Shown here: one piece after another, positions 5,420-23,685 of the stretch
Position numbering within the stretch: position 1 is the first letter of the stretch
How the letters are laid out: each line of letters opens with the position of its first letter
Virus record (IMG/VR): IMGVR_UViG_2537562013_000006
Coordinates: 1-26,225 of that record
From: a virus
Taxonomy: Duplodnaviria > Heunggongvirae > Uroviricota > Caudoviricetes
Direction: 5' to 3' (one strand)
DNA: 26,225 bases
Translations under genes and position numbers: made by a program
The notes under the pieces: model-generated
The model's database searches: none
What the model saw: the letters and a program-made list of their open reading frames with translations, nothing else
Told to the model about the DNA's origin: nothing

Positions 5420-6565
5420 TTAGCGAACAACGTTAATCTGTACGTCAGCGTAATGAACCGCGCCTGCAAGTTTTATTGCAGCCTGAATCACCGGAGCCTT
5501 ACGGGCTTCACGTTCTGATTGAGCCTGTTCATCCAGCGGCTGAGCGTATACGTAATAACCTTTGGGCAGTGTGTCACCTGATGACAACTGACCAAGGTCG
5601 CCCCCGTTCCATACGCCCGGAGCAATCAGTCCATTCTGAACGGTCTGATCCAGTGATTTTTCAACATTTGATAACAGTCGGGTAATACCGGCTTCAGTCT
5701 GGGGAACTTTCGTGGTGCTGGTATAAAGCAGGTTATAGAGGTTGGTCTGCACATAATTCTGTAACCAGTCCAGGCCGTGGCGTTCATCAAAGAAATCGCC
5801 GTTAGCCATCACTCCCTGCTGGAGGATAGCCGTATCATTCTGGTAGTACACGAATACATTGCAGTTTTTTGCATCAAGTGCCGATGCCTGGCTGACTGTC
5901 AGTGTTTCATACCCGATACCCGGCTCCTGCTTAAACTTGAGCGTAATCGCGGTATTACTGCCATTGAAATTAACCGTGAATGCCCGGCCAAATGCAGATA
6001 ACGCAGCGTATTTATTACCCGATGAATACTGAATAAAACTGCGTGAATATCCGGCGGTTTTCAGTTTTGATGCCAAATCATCGCTGGATGCAGTCTGCAG
6101 GCATTTCTCATCGCTTGTCGTAATCGCCAGAATACGGCTTACAGAAGAGGATTCGATCGCCGCAGCCACTTTCAGCCAGTCTGCATCCTGAATATCTTCA
6201 TCGTCTGCAATCCCCAGCCCATACCATGAAGTATAATCAAGCATGGCATTCACAGCCTGCTCCAGCGTCTCAGGCGTGGCCTGTTCGCTGTCTCCCTTCG
6301 TTTTCACCCAACGACCAACAAAAACCTCCTGAGGTTTCGGTGATTGAGAGAAAAACACCTGCGCAGCCTTATATTCTGGTGATTCCACGCCAAAATCTTT
6401 TCCAATATCTTCCGCGGCAGAATAACGGCGAATGCGCTCACTTACCGGAATGATTGTGGACGGGCCGAGAATGAGTAATGCACCAAAATTTCGCCCTGAT
6501 GCTGCACGCGGCGACATGATCACATCAACATTAACAACGTTTGATACAGGCAAGCCCTGTGCCAT
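5420..6565 (-). CDS. Tail sheath-like major tail protein (381 aa)
   Basis: ATG at 6565. Size and position (sheath, tube, chaperone, tape measure order) suggest a contractile tail. From memory it resembles the short DUF3383-type sheath family; not verified. Confidence 0.55.
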
Positions 6566-6568
6566 AGC

Positions 6569-7132
6569 TTAATCTCCGAAAAAGATGACTGGTGCATCCA
6601 CCAGCGATTTAATACCGTACTCGCGCACAACCTTCCGGCGCAGGCGCACCGTCATATCGTAGCGGCGGACCCATTGCTGATTAATAAGTTCAGGGAAGGG
6701 AGTCAGACCTGTGTAATCGCCAAGAGACAGCCCCAGCGCATTCAGTGCTGCATTGTTCTGCGGCACAGATATACCGTCACGAAACCGGGACGCATACACC
6801 ATCCCCGCCGGTCCATAAAACGAAGCCATACACTCAATCGTTTCATGCCGCCAGAGCTGAGAGCCATCATCGGTCTGTCTGGTGAATGCCGGACTGTCAT
6901 CACCTGACCATCCGATAACCCCAAACGCACACCAGTTCGTTTCAACCGGTAGCAGTGGCGGCTGCTCTTTCTGCCAGCGCGGGCGAACCATCCCGGCAGA
7001 CAGACCGGAAACGTTACGTATCCACTGGCTTAACAGCCTGTCGAGCGCTTCGTCATAATCCGGATCGCCACTGGTTGGTATTAACCATCCGCGCTCTGTA
7101 CTGGTGTTATTGCTCAACCGGAGTTCCCCCAT
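6569..7132 (-). CDS. Hypothetical virion/tail-completion protein (about 187 aa)
   Basis: The track ORF begins with TTG at 7135; the adjacent ATG at 7132 is used here. Overlaps the upstream gene by about 26 nt. Confidence 0.45.
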   Translation of the reverse strand: MGELRLSNNTSTERGWLIPTSGDPDYDEALDRLLSQWIRNVSGLSAGMVRPRWQKEQPPLLPVETNWCAFGVIGWSGDDSPAFTRQTDDGSQLWRHETIECMASFYGPAGMVYASRFRDGISVPQNNAALNALGLSLGDYTGLTPFPELINQQWVRRYDMTVRLRRKVVREYGIKSLVDAPVIFFGD

Positions 7133-15229: not shown

Positions 15230-15802
15230 TTAGCCCATCATTTTTCTATACGCCTCTGCAGCCTGCTCCGGCGTTAAGTTGGTAATTTCTGTTCTGACGG
15301 GTCCTCCATCAGCGCCAGTCACTTCATTTTTGACGTTGTCTTTAAACGCCTGAACAGAAACATGACGCCCAAGCAACTCAAGGTTTTTAACCTTATCAGG
15401 CCACTTAATCTTTTTAAGGATCCCGACCATTTCTCTGTCATCTCCTCGCCCCTCAAACATTTCAGCGAGGTTAAATCCACTCAGGTACCGACGCCACGAT
15501 TCCGGCCACGCAGACAGAGGCTTAATACTTAAATCGTCCTCCAGGATGTCAGCCACATCGAGCCTGTCGATCTCAACCAGTCGCATCAGCACATAATTAG
15601 CATCAATGCCCAGTTGATCAATACGCTCCTGCTTTAGCTCGTTAATACGGGCGCGTATCTCAGGTTTACCGTATAGTTCAGCCCCCGTAACATGTGCTCG
15701 CCTGGAGACGTAGCCTGCGCGAATAGCTGCTTGTGTAGCATTCAGATCGACAAGAAACTCGCGACAAAACACCTCGTGTTTTGCTTTCAGCTTCTTAGTC
15801 AT
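15230..15802 (-). CDS. Terminase small subunit (190 aa)
   Basis: N-terminal motif [25 protein letters not shown] is typical of the Terminase_2-type small subunit; lies directly upstream of the large subunit. Confidence 0.75.
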
Positions 15803-20912: not shown

Positions 20913-21113
20913 TTACACCTTTTGTCTAGCTGTCACTTCCTGAAAAAGTTTTTCTATCGCACGTACTGTAGAAAAGCGAGGGTCAGAATGAACCCCGGTA
21001 AGAAGCCGACTAATAGAAGACTGCTTCACGCCTGCAATTTCGGCAATTTGGTTTTGGGTATACCCTGAATCAATCAAGCTTTTGACCATCTCTTGTGGTG
21101 TTAGTCCGGACAT
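20913..21113 (-). CDS. Cro-like HTH transcriptional regulator (66 aa)
   Basis: Helix-turn-helix core QNQIAEIAGVKQSSISRLL; small protein transcribed divergently from the cI-like repressor; GGAG SD. Confidence 0.75.
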   Translation of the reverse strand: MSGLTPQEMVKSLIDSGYTQNQIAEIAGVKQSSISRLLTGVHSDPRFSTVRAIEKLFQEVTARQKV

Positions 21114-21146: not shown

Positions 21147-21220
21147 TTATACGAAAACGGATTACTCAGCAATACAGCAATTCTATGTCATCCTAGATTA
21201 AAATATCCGATAACGCATAA
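21147..21220. promoter_or_regulatory. Candidate operator region between the cro-like and cI-like genes (imperfect inverted 16-mers)
   Basis: TTATACGAAAACGGAT at 21147-21162 and its imperfect inverted partner ATCCGATAACGCATAA at 21205-21220 (12/16 match). Short palindromes CTATAG (21132-21137) and TGTATACA (21231-21238) are also present. Promoter hexamers were not confidently assigned. Confidence 0.3.
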
Positions 21221-21254: not shown

Positions 21255-21929
21255 ATGATTGATACTACCGATATCCTTTCTCAAAACATCAAGTACCTGA
21301 TGGACAAAGCCAAGATAAGCTCGATAACTGAGCTGGCACGTCGGTTACAGCTGAACCAACCAACGCTACACAGGCTGGTATCAGGAGAGGTGAAAGATCC
21401 GAAATACGCAACGTTAAAGCAGATCGCCGACTACTTCCACGTGTCACCAATAGACTTGGCAGAAAGGAGCCTTCAAGAAATGGAGAAAGAGGACGCGACA
21501 GGTATAAAAACGTATATTTCTCTTAGGTTTAATAAAGTACCTGTTTTGGGAAACACTCAGCTAGGCGTTGGAGGACTTTGGAGCGACACCCAATATTCAG
21601 TAGGTAGCAGTGATGGTTTCATATACTGGCCGACAAAGGATGAAGATGCATACGCCCTGAAATGTGTTGGTGATTCAATGATGCCTAGAATCAAAGAGGG
21701 GGAGTTCGTAATCGTCGAACCCAACCACGACTACACTCCTGGTGATGAAGTACTTGTGGTTACCCGGGAAGGTGAGGTCATGGTTAAAACCTTCTTGTTC
21801 GAACGCGATGGCCTGTTCCATCTAATGTCTGTAAATGAAGATCATCCACCAGTCAGAGTACCACGCGAAAACATTGAAAAAATCCATTACGTGGCGGGGA
21901 TCGCCAAATCCGCGCTACGTATGTACTAA
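21255..21929 (+). CDS. CI-like repressor with C-terminal LexA/S24 peptidase domain (224 aa)
   Basis: N-terminal HTH (ITELARRLQLNQPTLHRLVSG), C-terminal S24 fold with Ser in GDSMMP and Lys in VMVKTF about 38 residues later. Confidence 0.85.
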   Translation: MIDTTDILSQNIKYLMDKAKISSITELARRLQLNQPTLHRLVSGEVKDPKYATLKQIADYFHVSPIDLAERSLQEMEKEDATGIKTYISLRFNKVPVLGNTQLGVGGLWSDTQYSVGSSDGFIYWPTKDEDAYALKCVGDSMMPRIKEGEFVIVEPNHDYTPGDEVLVVTREGEVMVKTFLFERDGLFHLMSVNEDHPPVRVPRENIEKIHYVAGIAKSALRMY

Positions 21930-21961
21930 CCTTTACAGTCTGATAACTTACTTCTGATCAA

Positions 21962-21988
21962 ACCGCTCTCCACAAGGGCGGTTTTCTT
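21962..21988 (+). terminator. Intrinsic terminator after the repressor gene
   Basis: CCGCTC-(7-nt loop)-GGGCGG followed by TTTTCTTATTT, 33 nt after the cI-like stop. Confidence 0.5.
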
Positions 21989-22013
21989 ATTTGCAAAATA
22001 ATTCATTTTCGTA

Positions 22014-22042
22014 TTGACACAAAATCCCATAACGCATATAAA
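22014..22042 (+). promoter_or_regulatory. Near-consensus sigma70 promoter with no downstream ORF
   Basis: TTGACA (22014-22019), 17-bp spacer, TATAAA (22037-22042). Followed by a hairpin plus T6 (CGCAT-AATTA-ATGCG-TTTTTT, 22051-22071) and then about 270 bp without a plausible ORF. Confidence 0.35.
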
Positions 22043-22347
22043 TACGATGTCGCATAATTAATGCGTTTTTTAATACTGGCTCTTTAACAAACTGAACCGC
22101 GTGACAGGTAAGCCGCAGTACTCCTGGCAAAACGAAATAGCACCCGATGGGATCGAGGTAAGCGCCGAGTCCGTATGCGTACGGTAAGCGTAGAGGACAA
22201 CACCGCGACAAACTGATAAGTCACGCAAGTTGAAACGCCCCGACGATGGGGCGCTTAGTTCCTTTTGGGGTGGGGTGAAGATCAGTCCATTGAGTCAATC
22301 CGAAGTTCAGCATCTACCACTACACCACCACCAAAGAGAACTGCTAA

Positions 22348-22872
22348 TCATCTGGCAGGTTGTAACGGTGCAGGAGTTTTGCCACTGACTTCTATATTTC
22401 GGGGAAATTTATATTCAGCGGAGCATTTATGACACTTGAGAATTTTATAAGCGGCATTAGAAGTATGGTATTGAAGTATAGACTTCATACCCGACTCATA
22501 GCATGTAGTACAAAGATAATGAGGCTTGAACTCAGGATCGTCAGTAGGCTTCAGTACATAGACCACCGTATTGGTAATCGGGTGGTACATTTCATAGTTC
22601 ATTTTCTCACTATCCCAATCCTGTTTCTTTTCCAGAAGGGATTCGAGTTCAACAATGCGCTGTTTAGCTTCGTTCAAAAGCTCCGTTAGTGCGAATTGTC
22701 CAGTACGCGCATCAATTAGTTTATCAAGTAGATCGATAGTTTTACTTTTAACATTGTAATCCACCTGCAACGCATTAACTTCTTTTGCTAAATCAACAGC
22801 ACCTTTCAAAGCACCACCAGCACTAGTGGCCGCCTCAGTTATACGCCGTACAAGTCCTTTTTCTTCAGACAT
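22348..22872 (-). CDS. Hypothetical coiled-coil plus C4 zinc-ribbon protein (174 aa), low-GC cargo gene
   Basis: ATG at 22872. Helical N-terminal half; C-terminal C-X2-C-X22-C-X2-C (CTTC...CHKC). GC about 40 percent by eye versus a visibly GC-richer backbone. Transcribed opposite to both neighbours. Confidence 0.55.
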   Translation of the reverse strand: MSEEKGLVRRITEAATSAGGALKGAVDLAKEVNALQVDYNVKSKTIDLLDKLIDARTGQFALTELLNEAKQRIVELESLLEKKQDWDSEKMNYEMYHPITNTVVYVLKPTDDPEFKPHYLCTTCYESGMKSILQYHTSNAAYKILKCHKCSAEYKFPRNIEVSGKTPAPLQPAR

Positions 22873-23011: not shown

Positions 23012-23037
23012 GCCCGCCTCAAGTGACGGGCTTTTTT
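23012..23037 (+). terminator. Hairpin plus T6 in the leader of the rightward early operon (terminator/attenuator-like)
   Basis: GCCCG-(10-nt loop)-CGGGC followed by TTTTTT, about 60 bp upstream of the first early gene. Confidence 0.4.
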
Positions 23038-23096: not shown

Positions 23097-23246
23097 ATGA
23101 AACCTGAATACCTCCATCGACTGACGGGGCGCGATGTTCTCCGTTATCGCCGTAAAAACTTCGATTTGATGACCGGTCTGGCCGTTGCCACTGCGCTCGG
23201 TCTGATCATCACTTTCATTCTCCTTGTAGCGAGGACCACAGTATGA
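23097..23246 (+). CDS. Small membrane protein (49 aa), first gene of the rightward operon
   Basis: The track ORF begins with GTG at 23064. ATG at 23097 has AAGGA 9 nt upstream. C-terminal hydrophobic helix (LMTGLAVATALGLIITFILLVA). Stop overlaps the next start (ATGA). Confidence 0.45.
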   Translation: MKPEYLHRLTGRDVLRYRRKNFDLMTGLAVATALGLIITFILLVARTTV

Positions 23247-23545
23247 GTTTAGAAACCAGTCTCGAACTTAATAATCAACTTCTGGCACAACATAATGCGC
23301 TGCTTGAACGTCTTATCCGCACAATGGCATCAGGCATTGTTATGCATCCTGACACGATTTCACGAGTGCAGGAATGTCGGGATACAGCAACTGAAACTGA
23401 AAATATGTCAGCGGCAATGACACTGGATGATCTGGAGTTCAGCGACGTTATCGCACTGGCTGGTTTCTACCCGGTAGCCACCCCTATCACAGAAGACATG
23501 CTGCAACGTGCTGTTGCCTACCGTGATGCTGAAGGCGATGGTTGA
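23243..23545 (+). CDS. Hypothetical acidic early protein (100 aa)
   Basis: ATG at 23243, translationally coupled to the upstream gene; Asp/Glu-rich; no recognised motif. Confidence 0.5.
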   Translation: MSLETSLELNNQLLAQHNALLERLIRTMASGIVMHPDTISRVQECRDTATETENMSAAMTLDDLEFSDVIALAGFYPVATPITEDMLQRAVAYRDAEGDG

Positions 23546-23685
23546 TCCTCCAGTTAGCAAAAGGGGGTTACCGGGCAGAAGCTATTGCAATTCTGGAAAA
23601 ACAGGGAGCCAGGAAACTTGGTGAAGTAACGGATGAAAATCTCGCTGAAGTAATCACCCTGGCTGAAAAAGCACTGGAGGGTTAA
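23542..23685 (+). CDS. Possible small ORF (47 aa, TTG start) filling the gap before the nuclease gene
   Basis: Open frame from TTG at 23542 (GAAGG 6 nt upstream) to TAA at 23683-23685, ending 2 nt before the nuclease ATG. Reads [47 protein letters not shown]. No ATG; weak call. Confidence 0.25.

What the first reader, a model, noticed from the sequence alone, without database searches (positions are those of the whole stretch)
21993..22347. Orphan near-consensus promoter and structured noncoding stretch with a triple GGTAAGC repeat (candidate phage sRNA)
Downstream of the repressor terminator there is TTGACA-17bp-TATAAA with no ORF behind it. About 270 bp of noncoding sequence follows, containing GGTAAGC three times (22107, 22157, 22183), several hairpins (CCGTA-TGCG-TACGG; CGCCCC-GACGAT-GGGGCG near 22238-22255) and a hairpin-T6 right at the predicted transcript start. 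Consensus promoters without a gene are rare in compact phage genomes. This could be a regulatory or toxin-antagonising sRNA, or a protein-binding array. A chance promoter match is not negligible (roughly 10-30 percent by my estimate for this window).
Basis: partly seen in the sequence, partly recalled or inferred. Interest (0 to 1): 0.55.

Follow-up and report, generated by a model that had tools for sequence, protein, structure and literature searches.

The report
BoxA-led structured phage leader RNA
The "orphan" promoter is most likely the prophage's repressor-controlled early promoter, and the noncoding stretch behind it is a conserved, unannotated folded RNA that begins with a host Nus-factor binding site (boxA) and probably lets early transcription read through downstream terminators.

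Summary
The interpretation needs changing. The window is an APSE/YeP4-like E. coli prophage. TTGACA-17-TATAAA (22014-22042) lies just after the CI repressor gene's terminator. Three operator-like sites overlap it and recur in the cI-cro intergenic region. About 30 nt after the predicted start lies GCTCTTTAACAA (22079-22090), an exact boxA. It opens a ~175-nt module (22079-22253) found in more than 120 phage and prophage loci in six sequence classes. About 19 different promoter/operator regions precede the module, and variable inserted genes follow it. Covariation supports a folded plus-strand RNA: 98.9% of cells pair against 23-34% in slid controls, and 16 of 23 pairs change on both sides. The GGTAAGC repeats flank one dispensable helix and are absent from other classes. 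In relatives without the inserted minus-strand gene, the module is the 5' leader of the early replication operon. In 65 of 74 arrangements a plus-strand intrinsic terminator lies between module and operon. My best reading is a nut/put-like antitermination leader (confidence about 0.55), not a lysogen sRNA. No Rfam family, HK022 put or lambda nut match was found. No transcript data exist.

The parts
21149..21218 (.). Two operator-like sites (21149-21162 and 21205-21218) in the cI-cro intergenic region
   Evidence: Repeat families D1/D4 and I1 link this region to 21991-22058. The motif ATRCG-N4-BGNAT matches both sites; this motif was derived after seeing the sites.
21255..21929 (+). CI-type repressor gene (HTH plus Peptidase_S24)
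   Evidence: PHROG 4 transcriptional repressor, E = 1e-34. Pfam HTH_26 plus Peptidase_S24.
21960..21995 (+). Intrinsic terminator of the repressor gene
   Evidence: 10-bp stem followed by a T-rich tail. Fold energy -13.4 kcal/mol, z = -3.6.
22001..22055 (.). Three operator-like sites (22001-22014, 22024-22037, 22042-22055) covering the -35, spacer/-10 and start site
   Evidence: 22021-22038 matches 21202-21219 at 16 of 18 positions, and 21991-22014 is inverted relative to 21149-21172. Words specific to each immunity type are shared between the two regions in 70 loci. The layout resembles lambda OL1-3.
22014..22042 (+). Sigma-70-type promoter TTGACA-17-TATAAA; predicted start about 22047-22049
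   Evidence: Read from the sequence. Score 11.5, reached by 1% of shuffles for this promoter type, scored on relative L090. A TTGACx promoter-like site lies 18-48 nt before boxA in most of about 19 upstream types. No transcript data exist.
22051..22071 (+). Weak hairpin plus T6 at the 5' end of the predicted transcript; lies in the immunity-specific segment
   Evidence: Listed. Fold energy -4.5 kcal/mol. The stem and T-run are broken in L019/L074/L117, which share this immunity type, and absent from other types.
22079..22090 (+). boxA (GCTCTTTAACAA), predicted NusB/NusE binding site
   Evidence: It is the only exact copy in the window and fits the consensus GYTCTTTAANA (PMC5725501). All 72 true members recovered by a search pattern that did not include boxA carry it.
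22079..22253 (+). Whole conserved RNA module (boxA, folded domain, 3' hairpin)
   Evidence: Module boundaries coincide with the points where flanking sequence is replaced between loci. The covariance model finds exactly one copy per locus in 74 loci. No Rfam match.
22099..22226 (+). Helix P1 (22099-22105 with 22220-22226), which closes the folded domain
   Evidence: Five different complementary versions occur across the six classes. Four of 6 modelled pairs change on both sides. Single-sequence folding predicts it in every class.
22112..22209 (+). Irregular helix P2 (22112-22116/22205-22209; 22118-22120/22201-22203; 22122-22125/22194-22197)
   Evidence: Read by hand and checked by script: GUG/CAC, GCG/CGC, UGCAU/AUGCA, CGCAU/AUGCG, and UCCU/AGGA versus UCCC/GGGA. 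The window allele has two mismatches. The outer parts are less certain.
22126..22141 (+). Nearly invariant junction strand GGCAAAACGAAATAGC
   Evidence: Invariant or nearly invariant columns in alignment A1. Present in all six classes.
22143..22158 (+). Hairpin P3 with a conserved bulged A and an NGGA-type loop
   Evidence: All 5 pairs change on both sides and 100% of cells pair. The bulged A is present in all six classes.
22157..22191 (+). Helix P4 (P4a 22162-22165/22188-22191; P4b 22171-22175/22180-22184), flanked by the 2nd and 3rd GGTAAGC copies
   Evidence: Covariation. P4 is absent from classes 4 and 6 and is precisely deleted in L041.
22236..22253 (.). GC-rich 3' hairpin that ends the module; no adjacent U-tract on the plus strand; may also stop leftward transcription from inserted genes
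   Evidence: Fold energy -14.7 kcal/mol. Conserved in classes 1, 2 and 5. Homology with vB_EcoM-606R2 ends at 22265.
22348..22872 (-). Variable inserted gene (174 aa, PHROG 1244, function unknown), lying between the leader and the early operon
   Evidence: ORF; PHROG match. A different allele sits here in 606R2. Absent from YeP4 and L009. No Pfam or PADLOC assignment.
23012..23037 (+). Plus-strand intrinsic terminator (GCCCG...CGGGC plus T6) just upstream of the early operon
   Evidence: Fold. An equivalent terminator is present in 65 of 74 distinct arrangements, against 6 of 74 on the minus strand. No promoter-like site was found between it and the first gene.
23097..23246 (+). First conserved early gene (49 aa, PHROG 11981). 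A PHROG 6784 gene, an exonuclease, a Gp2.5-like SSB and a DNA polymerase follow

Best explanation
The element is the early promoter of the prophage and the 5' leader of its early replication and recombination operon. The promoter is the functional counterpart of lambda PL, although it points the same way as cI. CI is inferred to bind three operators over the promoter and keep it off in the lysogen. After induction, RNA polymerase transcribes boxA about 30 nt from the start. NusB/NusE and the other Nus factors are predicted to load there. A ~140-nt folded domain follows: a long irregular stem P1-P2 capped by a junction carrying GGCAAAAYGAAAURGC, hairpin P3 and an optional P4. Together these are proposed to make the polymerase termination-resistant, a nut/put-like processive antitermination. 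The polymerase can then cross about 1 kb of untranslated RNA, the slot where foreign genes are inserted, and the intrinsic terminator that guards the early operon. Shown here: sequence conservation, modularity, RNA-level covariation, the boxA match, operator sharing and terminator placement. Inferred: promoter activity, CI binding, Nus loading and antitermination itself.
For: The boxA is exact and unique in the window, fits the published consensus, and is retained in 72 of 72 true members found without using boxA in the search pattern. APSE-1 also has its only exact boxA behind its repressor gene. The geometry matches lambda PL/OL/nutL, with operators over the promoter and boxA about +30. The module is a mosaic unit: about 19 upstream promoter/operator types precede it and variable inserts follow it. 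Operator words that co-vary with the repressor type are shared between the repressor-upstream region and the boxA-upstream region; 31 of 70 loci have a control fraction of 0.02 or less. The RNA structure is supported: 98.9% of cells pair against 23-34% in slid controls, 16 of 23 pairs change on both sides, and 0 of 500 shuffles reach the observed values. G.U pairs number 22 against 5 A.C. Independent single-sequence folds of six classes give the same architecture. The module lies directly in the 5' UTR of the early operon in YeP4 and L009. A plus-strand terminator lies between the module and the first early gene in 65 of 74 arrangements, against 6 of 74 on the minus strand. No promoter-like site separates that terminator from the gene in the window. 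Each locus holds one copy, always promoter-proximal.
Against: No transcript, start-site or functional data exist. The -10 hexamer lacks the usual final T. BoxA with Nus factors alone is documented against Rho-dependent termination (PMC7665894, PMC5725501), not against strong intrinsic terminators, and no N-like protein was identified. Single-sequence folding energies are not better than shuffles (z from -2.2 to +0.8). The pair counts come from an alignment fitted to the model. Nine of 74 arrangements show no detected terminator. One upstream type (L004 group) shows no obvious promoter near boxA. The window allele has two mismatches in P2.
Confidence: 0.55

Rival explanations
1. The leader acts only through Rho protection and RNA processing. 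BoxA recruits the Nus complex solely to protect the long untranslated leader from Rho, as in rrn operons and CRISPR arrays. The folded domain has a separate cis role, such as an RNase III processing site, an mRNA stability element or a translational control element like the lambda N-leader hairpin. Under this rival, the downstream intrinsic terminator is simply leaky.
For: BoxA-only systems are known to counter Rho on untranslated RNA. The window has about 1 kb of untranslated RNA before the first early ORF. The P1-P2 stem is long and irregular, as RNase III substrates are (the comparison with the lambda N leader rests on my own knowledge). No phage antiterminator protein was found.
Against: It does not explain why a canonical intrinsic terminator sits in front of the early operon in 65 of 74 arrangements. 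It also does not explain why the folded domain always travels with boxA as one mosaic unit.
Confidence: 0.22
2. One reading: the promoter makes a stand-alone trans-acting small RNA of about 200 nt that ends at the 22236-22253 hairpin and regulates host or phage targets.
For: There is a strong promoter-like site, a conserved structured RNA and a GC-rich 3' hairpin. In many relatives a short hairpin with a U-run follows within about 25 nt.
Against: Operators over the promoter predict repression in lysogens. The 3' hairpin has no adjacent U-tract in the window. A boxA is not expected at the 5' end of an sRNA. In YeP4 and L009 the module is simply the operon's 5' UTR. No Rfam sRNA family matches.
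Confidence: 0.12
3. The element acts at the DNA level, as a replication origin or an array of protein-binding GGTAAGC sites.
For: GGTAAGC occurs three times within 83 nt, and the element lies next to replication genes.
Against: The repeat is absent from classes 2-6, which keep the fold, and one repeat interval is deleted in L041. Substitutions are compensatory, with a G.U over A.C excess on one strand, which indicates selection on RNA.
Confidence: 0.04
4. The minus-strand 46-aa ORF (22084-22224), annotated as a hypothetical protein in vB_EcoM-606R2, is a real gene.
For: The ORF is open in all class 1 loci and is annotated in one GenBank record.
Against: Variable sites fall 9/19/15 on codon positions 1/2/3, and 50 distinct sequences give 31 different translations. 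It starts with GTG. It is not conserved as an ORF across classes. RefSeq does not annotate it.
Confidence: 0.02

Closest known systems
Lambda nutL (boxA + boxB) behind PL/OL
   Same: The promoter is repressor-controlled and covered by three operators, and boxA lies about 30 nt after the start. The element sits at the head of an early operon that contains terminators and inserted genes.
   Different: There is no 15-nt boxB hairpin with a GNRA-like pentaloop. Instead there is a ~140-nt multi-helix domain. No N-like protein was found, and the first terminator lies before any early gene. The boxA matches the stronger rrn-type consensus rather than lambda's CGCTCTTA. The covariance model finds nothing in lambda 33-41 kb.
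HK022 putL/putR antiterminator RNA
   Same: Both are cis-acting folded RNAs placed just downstream of an early promoter in a phage with no identified N homologue. If put-like, this one would act without a phage protein (PMC9378689).
   Different: Put is about 70 nt with two stem-loops, has no boxA and needs no Nus factors. This module is about 175 nt, starts with boxA and has a closing helix and a junction. There is no model hit in the HK022 genome at E <= 10, and each locus holds one copy rather than two.
rrn-leader, CRISPR-leader and suhB boxA (Nus-factor complex)
   Same: The boxA matches the consensus GYTCTTTAANA exactly. In class 4, 15 nt of boxA plus spacer appear to match the rrn leader, judged from my recollection of the rrn sequence. 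It stands in front of a long untranslated RNA.
   Different: It is phage-borne and under immunity control. It is coupled to a dedicated folded domain and to downstream intrinsic terminators, which the Nus complex alone is not known to override.
Lambda N-leader RNase III hairpin
   Same: Both are large irregular stems immediately downstream of a nut site in an early leader (from my own knowledge, not tested here).
   Different: There is no sequence similarity, and RNase III cleavage was not tested.

Membership tests
Lambda-type nut site | boxA sequence matching the consensus | tested here: met
   GCTCTTTAACA at 22079-22089 fits GYTCTTTAANA.
Lambda-type nut site | Position a few tens of nt downstream of a repressor-controlled early promoter | tested here: met
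   BoxA lies 36 nt after the -10 hexamer, and operator-like sites lie over the promoter. Lambda is compared. The transcription start is predicted only.
Lambda-type nut site | boxB: a short hairpin with a GNRA-like pentaloop soon after boxA | tested here: not met
   No such hairpin is conserved. The first structure after boxA is the long-range helix P1, and the P3 loop is NGGA.
Lambda-type nut site | Phage N protein with an arginine-rich motif encoded downstream | tested here: inconclusive
   PHROG and Pfam scans of neighbouring genes give no antiterminator apart from the Q annotated elsewhere in the prophage. The 49-aa first gene has an Arg-rich N-terminus but also a hydrophobic, likely membrane-spanning tail. 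The whole phage proteome was not screened.
HK022 put RNA | About 70 nt, two stem-loops, sequence and structure similar to putL/putR | tested here: not met
   Model R1 finds nothing in the HK022 genome at E <= 10. The architecture also differs.
HK022 put RNA | Acts in cis on RNA polymerase without protein factors to suppress termination | not testable with these tools
   This needs in vitro transcription or reporter assays.
Nus-factor boxA antitermination (rrn, CRISPR, suhB type) | Consensus boxA in the nascent RNA upstream of long untranslated RNA | tested here: met
   The boxA is exact, and about 1 kb separates it from the first early start codon in the window.
Nus-factor boxA antitermination (rrn, CRISPR, suhB type) | NusB/NusE binding and Rho-dependent polarity when boxA is mutated | not testable with these tools
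   This needs ChIP, EMSA and bicyclomycin experiments.
Any Rfam 15 family | Covariance-model match | tested here: not met
   The window has no hit at gathering thresholds. At E <= 10, region 21900-22420 gives only spurious eukaryotic microRNA and snoRNA hits. Five other loci and APSE-1 have no hit over the module.
Stand-alone trans-acting sRNA gene | Own promoter plus an intrinsic terminator that defines a short transcript | tested here: inconclusive
   A promoter-like site is present. The 3' hairpin lacks an adjacent U-tract in the window. Some relatives have a small U-tailed hairpin about 25 nt further on.

The most novel reading that the evidence does not exclude
This may be a previously undescribed class of processive antiterminator RNA. 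A boxA-tethered, ~140-nt folded domain would make host RNA polymerase resistant to intrinsic as well as Rho-dependent terminators without any phage protein. It would work with Nus factors, or by touching the polymerase directly as put does, making it a hybrid of the rrn-type and put-type mechanisms. It would serve as the key that opens a terminator-insulated early operon in APSE/YeP4-like temperate phages of Enterobacterales.
Probability: 0.35. Interest if true: 0.75.

Novelty: new variant of a known kind. Interest (0 to 1): 0.6.

Why it matters
If the prediction holds, this would be a third solution to early antitermination in temperate phages, alongside N/nut and put. It would combine the host's strongest boxA with a dedicated RNA fold. 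It would also explain how APSE-like phages, which carry toxin and other cargo genes in aphid symbionts and in enteric pathogens, express replication genes placed behind an insulating terminator and a hot spot for foreign gene insertion. The family is compact, has about 19 promoter contexts and six sequence classes, and has clear compensatory variants. It is therefore directly testable with reporter fusions. It is also currently unannotated in 92 of 5426 complete E. coli genomes, and mis-annotated as a protein in at least one phage record.

Tried and rejected
- Rfam matches: none at gathering thresholds, only spurious hits at E <= 10, and none in other classes or APSE-1 over the module.
- tRNA or tmRNA: none.
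- Homology to HK022 put or lambda nut, tested with the covariance model: none.
- Thermodynamic stability as evidence: single-sequence z-scores are not significant, so I relied on covariation instead.
- RNAalifold on the raw MAFFT alignment with 3' flanks failed because of misalignment. The trimmed alignment and the model-based alignment worked.
- The first covariance model was built with the automatic consensus structure rather than my curated one. It lacks P2a, P2b and P4a and misaligns P1 in class 5 and most of classes 4 and 6, so the tool counts are conservative for those classes.
- Minus-strand 46-aa ORF as a gene: rejected.
- GGTAAGC as a protein-binding array: rejected.
- Hairpin-T6 as a conserved attenuator: rejected, because it is weak and not conserved even within the same immunity type.
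- Similarity between the 49-aa first early protein and an Arg-rich unannotated ORF in APSE-1: none.
- Pfam and PADLOC for the inserted 174-aa gene: nothing.
- Literature searches for the core sequence and for boxA-type phage RNA elements found no description of this element.
- My first terminator scan with perfect stems undercounted (45 of 74) and was replaced by an energy-based scan.

Full report
**Observation**

The window around the finding reads as follows:
- a VapE-type primase-helicase gene on the minus strand;
- a Cro-like gene on the minus strand (20913-21113);
- a CI-type repressor gene with HTH and Peptidase_S24 domains on the plus strand (21255-21929);
- a strong terminator (21960-21984; z = -3.6);
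- TTGACA (22014-22019), a 17-nt spacer, and TATAAA (22037-42);
- noncoding sequence up to 22347;
- a 174-aa ORF of unknown function on the minus strand (22348-22872);
- a plus-strand operon from about 23064 that encodes a 49-aa protein, a PHROG 6784 protein, an exonuclease and, in relatives, a Gp2.5-like SSB and a DNA polymerase.

The three GGTAAGC copies are at 22107, 22157 and 22183. The two hairpins are at 22171-22184 and 22236-22253. The hairpin-T6 is at 22051-22071, but it is weak (-4.5 kcal/mol).

**Provenance**

The region is 99.8% identical to prophages of E. coli IAI1, H10407 and O103:H2 12009. It is 97.6% identical to four vB_EcoM phages, but only up to window position 22265. It is 71% identical to Yersinia phages YeP4-6 over 21983-22141. 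A published comparison places YeP4 with APSE, Xfas53 and BPP-1 in sharing this early-gene module (PMC8579659).

**The promoter is not orphan**

The repeat finder linked the promoter region to the cI-cro intergenic region. Positions 22021-22038 match 21202-21219 at 16 of 18 positions. Positions 21991-22014 are an inverted copy of 21149-21172.

Reading these repeats gives a 14-bp imperfect palindrome, ATRCG-N4-BGNAT. Two copies lie in the cI-cro region. Three lie at 22001-22014, 22024-22037 and 22042-22055, over the -35, the spacer/-10 and the predicted start. I derived this motif after seeing the sites, so its enrichment statistic is not independent. The arrangement is that of lambda OL1-3 over PL.

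The pattern generalises. In 70 loci covering about 19 upstream types, the 115 nt before the conserved module share 9-17-mers with the region upstream of the repressor gene, and these words differ by immunity type. In 31 of the 70 loci the control fraction is 0.02 or less. Most upstream types carry a TTGACx-17-(-10) match that ends 18-48 nt before the module.

In YeP4 and L009, which lack the minus-strand insert, the same promoter and leader run straight into the early operon. The absence of a gene behind the promoter in this window is therefore the result of a gene insertion.

**boxA**

Positions 22079-22090 read GCTCTTTAACAA. This is an exact match to the gamma-proteobacterial boxA consensus GYTCTTTAANA (PMC5725501). 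It is the only exact copy in the window. It lies about 30 nt after the predicted start, as boxA does in lambda nutL.

A collection scan with a pattern that did not include boxA recovered 70 viral loci. Sixty-nine carry the exact 12-mer and one carries GTTCTTTAACAA. The same pattern recovered two true genome hits, Trabulsiella and Pluralibacter, both within the consensus.

APSE-1 also has the only exact boxA of its 36.5-kb genome behind its repressor gene and a TTGACT promoter-like site. Its downstream RNA differs, but it shows a P1-like closing helix; the model hit is weak (E = 0.2).

**A modular, structured RNA**

Alignment of more than 120 loci shows a ~175-nt unit that begins exactly at boxA and ends at the 22236-22253 hairpin. 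Sequence is replaced wholesale on both sides of it. Six sequence classes exist: 105, 4, 4, 5, 2 and 1 loci.

Independent single-sequence folds of all six classes give the same plan:
- boxA is unpaired;
- an ~8-nt spacer follows;
- helix P1 closes the domain;
- an irregular helix P2 ends in CCU/AGG;
- a junction carries the nearly invariant strand GGCAAAAYGAAAURGC;
- hairpin P3 has a bulged A in every class;
- helix P4 is optional.

A script confirmed complementarity of each helix in each class. P1, for example, reads GCGUGAC/GUCACGC, GCAUGAC/GUCAUGC, GCACUG/CAGUGC, CACAGCAGCC/GGCUGCUGUG and GCAUCGG/CCGAUGC.

A covariance model built from classes 1, 2, 3 and 5 found exactly one copy per locus in 74 loci (751 kb). 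It also found classes 4 and 6, which were not in the seed. On the resulting alignment:
- 98.9% of cells pair, against 23-34% when partners are slid by 1-3 columns;
- 16 of 23 pairs change on both sides, against 1-4 in the slid controls;
- none of 500 shuffles reaches the observed values.

This alignment is fitted to the model, which favours the structure. However, the model misaligns parts of classes 4-6, which works against it. G.U pairs outnumber A.C 22 to 5, so the RNA is read from the plus strand. Folding energies alone are not significant (z from -2.2 to +0.8).

**The GGTAAGC repeats**

The second and third copies (GGTAAGCGC and GGTAAGCGT) flank helix P4 and supply its outer stem. P4 is absent from classes 4 and 6, and L041 has deleted it precisely between the repeats. 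Classes 2-6 lack the heptamer but keep the fold. The repeat is therefore a class-1 peculiarity and not the functional core.

**Context pointing to antitermination**

The module is always the promoter-proximal element. Variable inserts on either strand always lie downstream of it. The first conserved early gene is preceded by a plus-strand intrinsic terminator in 65 of 74 distinct arrangements, against 6 of 74 on the minus strand of the same intervals. In the window this terminator is GCCCG...CGGGC plus T6 at 23012-23037. No promoter-like site was found between it and the gene.

In the window, a polymerase starting at about 22048 must cross about 1 kb of untranslated RNA, including the antisense of the inserted gene, and then this terminator. 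BoxA-bound Nus complexes are known to protect untranslated RNA from Rho (PMC5725501, PMC7665894). Phage nut and put elements add resistance to intrinsic terminators (PMC9378689).

The most economical reading is a nut/put-like leader that licenses only transcripts from the immunity-controlled promoter to enter a terminator-insulated early operon. This step is inference, and I put it at about 0.55.

**Rivals**

- BoxA only counters Rho, and the fold serves processing, stability or translation, as with the RNase III hairpin of the lambda N leader (own knowledge). Confidence about 0.22.
- A trans-acting sRNA, about 0.12. It is weakened by the operators, by the boxA, by the lack of a U-tract after the 3' hairpin in the window, and by the module's position as a plain 5' UTR in YeP4 and L009.
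- A DNA-level element, about 0.04. The strand-asymmetric compensatory changes contradict it.
- The annotated minus-strand ORF, about 0.02. Variable sites fall 9/19/15 by codon position.

**Comparison with known systems**

The element works like a nut site, but it fails the boxB feature and no N protein was found. It resembles put in position and possibly in protein independence, but not in size, sequence or structure, and the model finds nothing in HK022 or lambda. It shares its boxA with the rrn, CRISPR and suhB systems.

No Rfam 15 family matches any class. Text searches for its core sequences and for comparable phage elements found nothing. RefSeq annotates nothing under it in 92 of 5426 complete E. 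coli genomes, where it is single-copy and chromosomal.

**Verdict**

The feature is a real, conserved, unannotated RNA element: the boxA-led leader of the early operon of APSE/YeP4-like prophages. It is best classed as a new variant of the nut/put kind of antitermination signal, pending experiments. Interest 0.6.

Noticed in passing
window 23243-23685: The PHROG 6784 gene is about 300 aa in IAI1 and other relatives. Here it is split into a 100-aa and a 47-aa ORF that match profile residues 1-97 and 252-298. This prophage therefore carries an internal deletion of roughly 450 bp.
   Followed up: partly
window 22265 and 22348-22872: There is a mosaic joint just after the module's 3' hairpin. Related phages carry a different allele (189 aa) of the minus-strand gene of unknown function (PHROG 1244). 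Other relatives carry plus-strand genes or nothing in this slot. Pfam and PADLOC give no assignment.
   Followed up: partly
L041 (module at 6498-6621, minus strand): A precise deletion between the second and third GGTAAGCG repeats removes helix P4. This shows both that the repeats are recombinogenic and that P4 is dispensable.
   Followed up: yes
L005, L024, L056 (class 3) and L007, L055, directly after the module: A strong Shine-Dalgarno sequence (GGAGGA) is followed by ATG-TAG, a start-stop, in class 3. In L007 and L055 it is followed by a three-codon mini-ORF, ATG CAC AAG TAA. These may be ribosome-loading sites in the leader.
   Followed up: no
L129 (APSE-1) 35973-36524, minus strand: Behind the APSE-1 repressor gene lies a TTGACT promoter-like site. 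The genome's only exact boxA follows it (36396-36406), then a P1-like closing helix. An unannotated 44-aa arginine-rich ORF (36107-35973) lies just before P53. That ORF shows no similarity to the window's 49-aa protein.
   Followed up: partly
L004 9665-10411 (also L051, L108, L125): In this upstream type, two extra small genes, one on each strand, lie between the repressor gene and the module. No sigma-70-like promoter is seen within 130 nt of boxA.
   Followed up: partly
window 15645-15658: The perfect palindrome ATACGGGCGCGTAT fits the operator-like motif but lies far from the immunity region. It may be a further repressor site or a chance match.
   Followed up: no
window 23097-23246: The first conserved early gene encodes a 49-aa protein (PHROG 11981). 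It has an arginine-rich N-terminus (HRLTGRDVLRYRRKNF) and a hydrophobic C-terminal half. It is conserved in position across classes and its function is unknown.
   Followed up: partly
window 22236-22253: Natural variants of the 3' hairpin give G.U pairs on the plus strand in some loci and on the minus strand in others. This is consistent with the hairpin acting on both strands, for example as a stop for leftward transcription from inserted genes.
   Followed up: no
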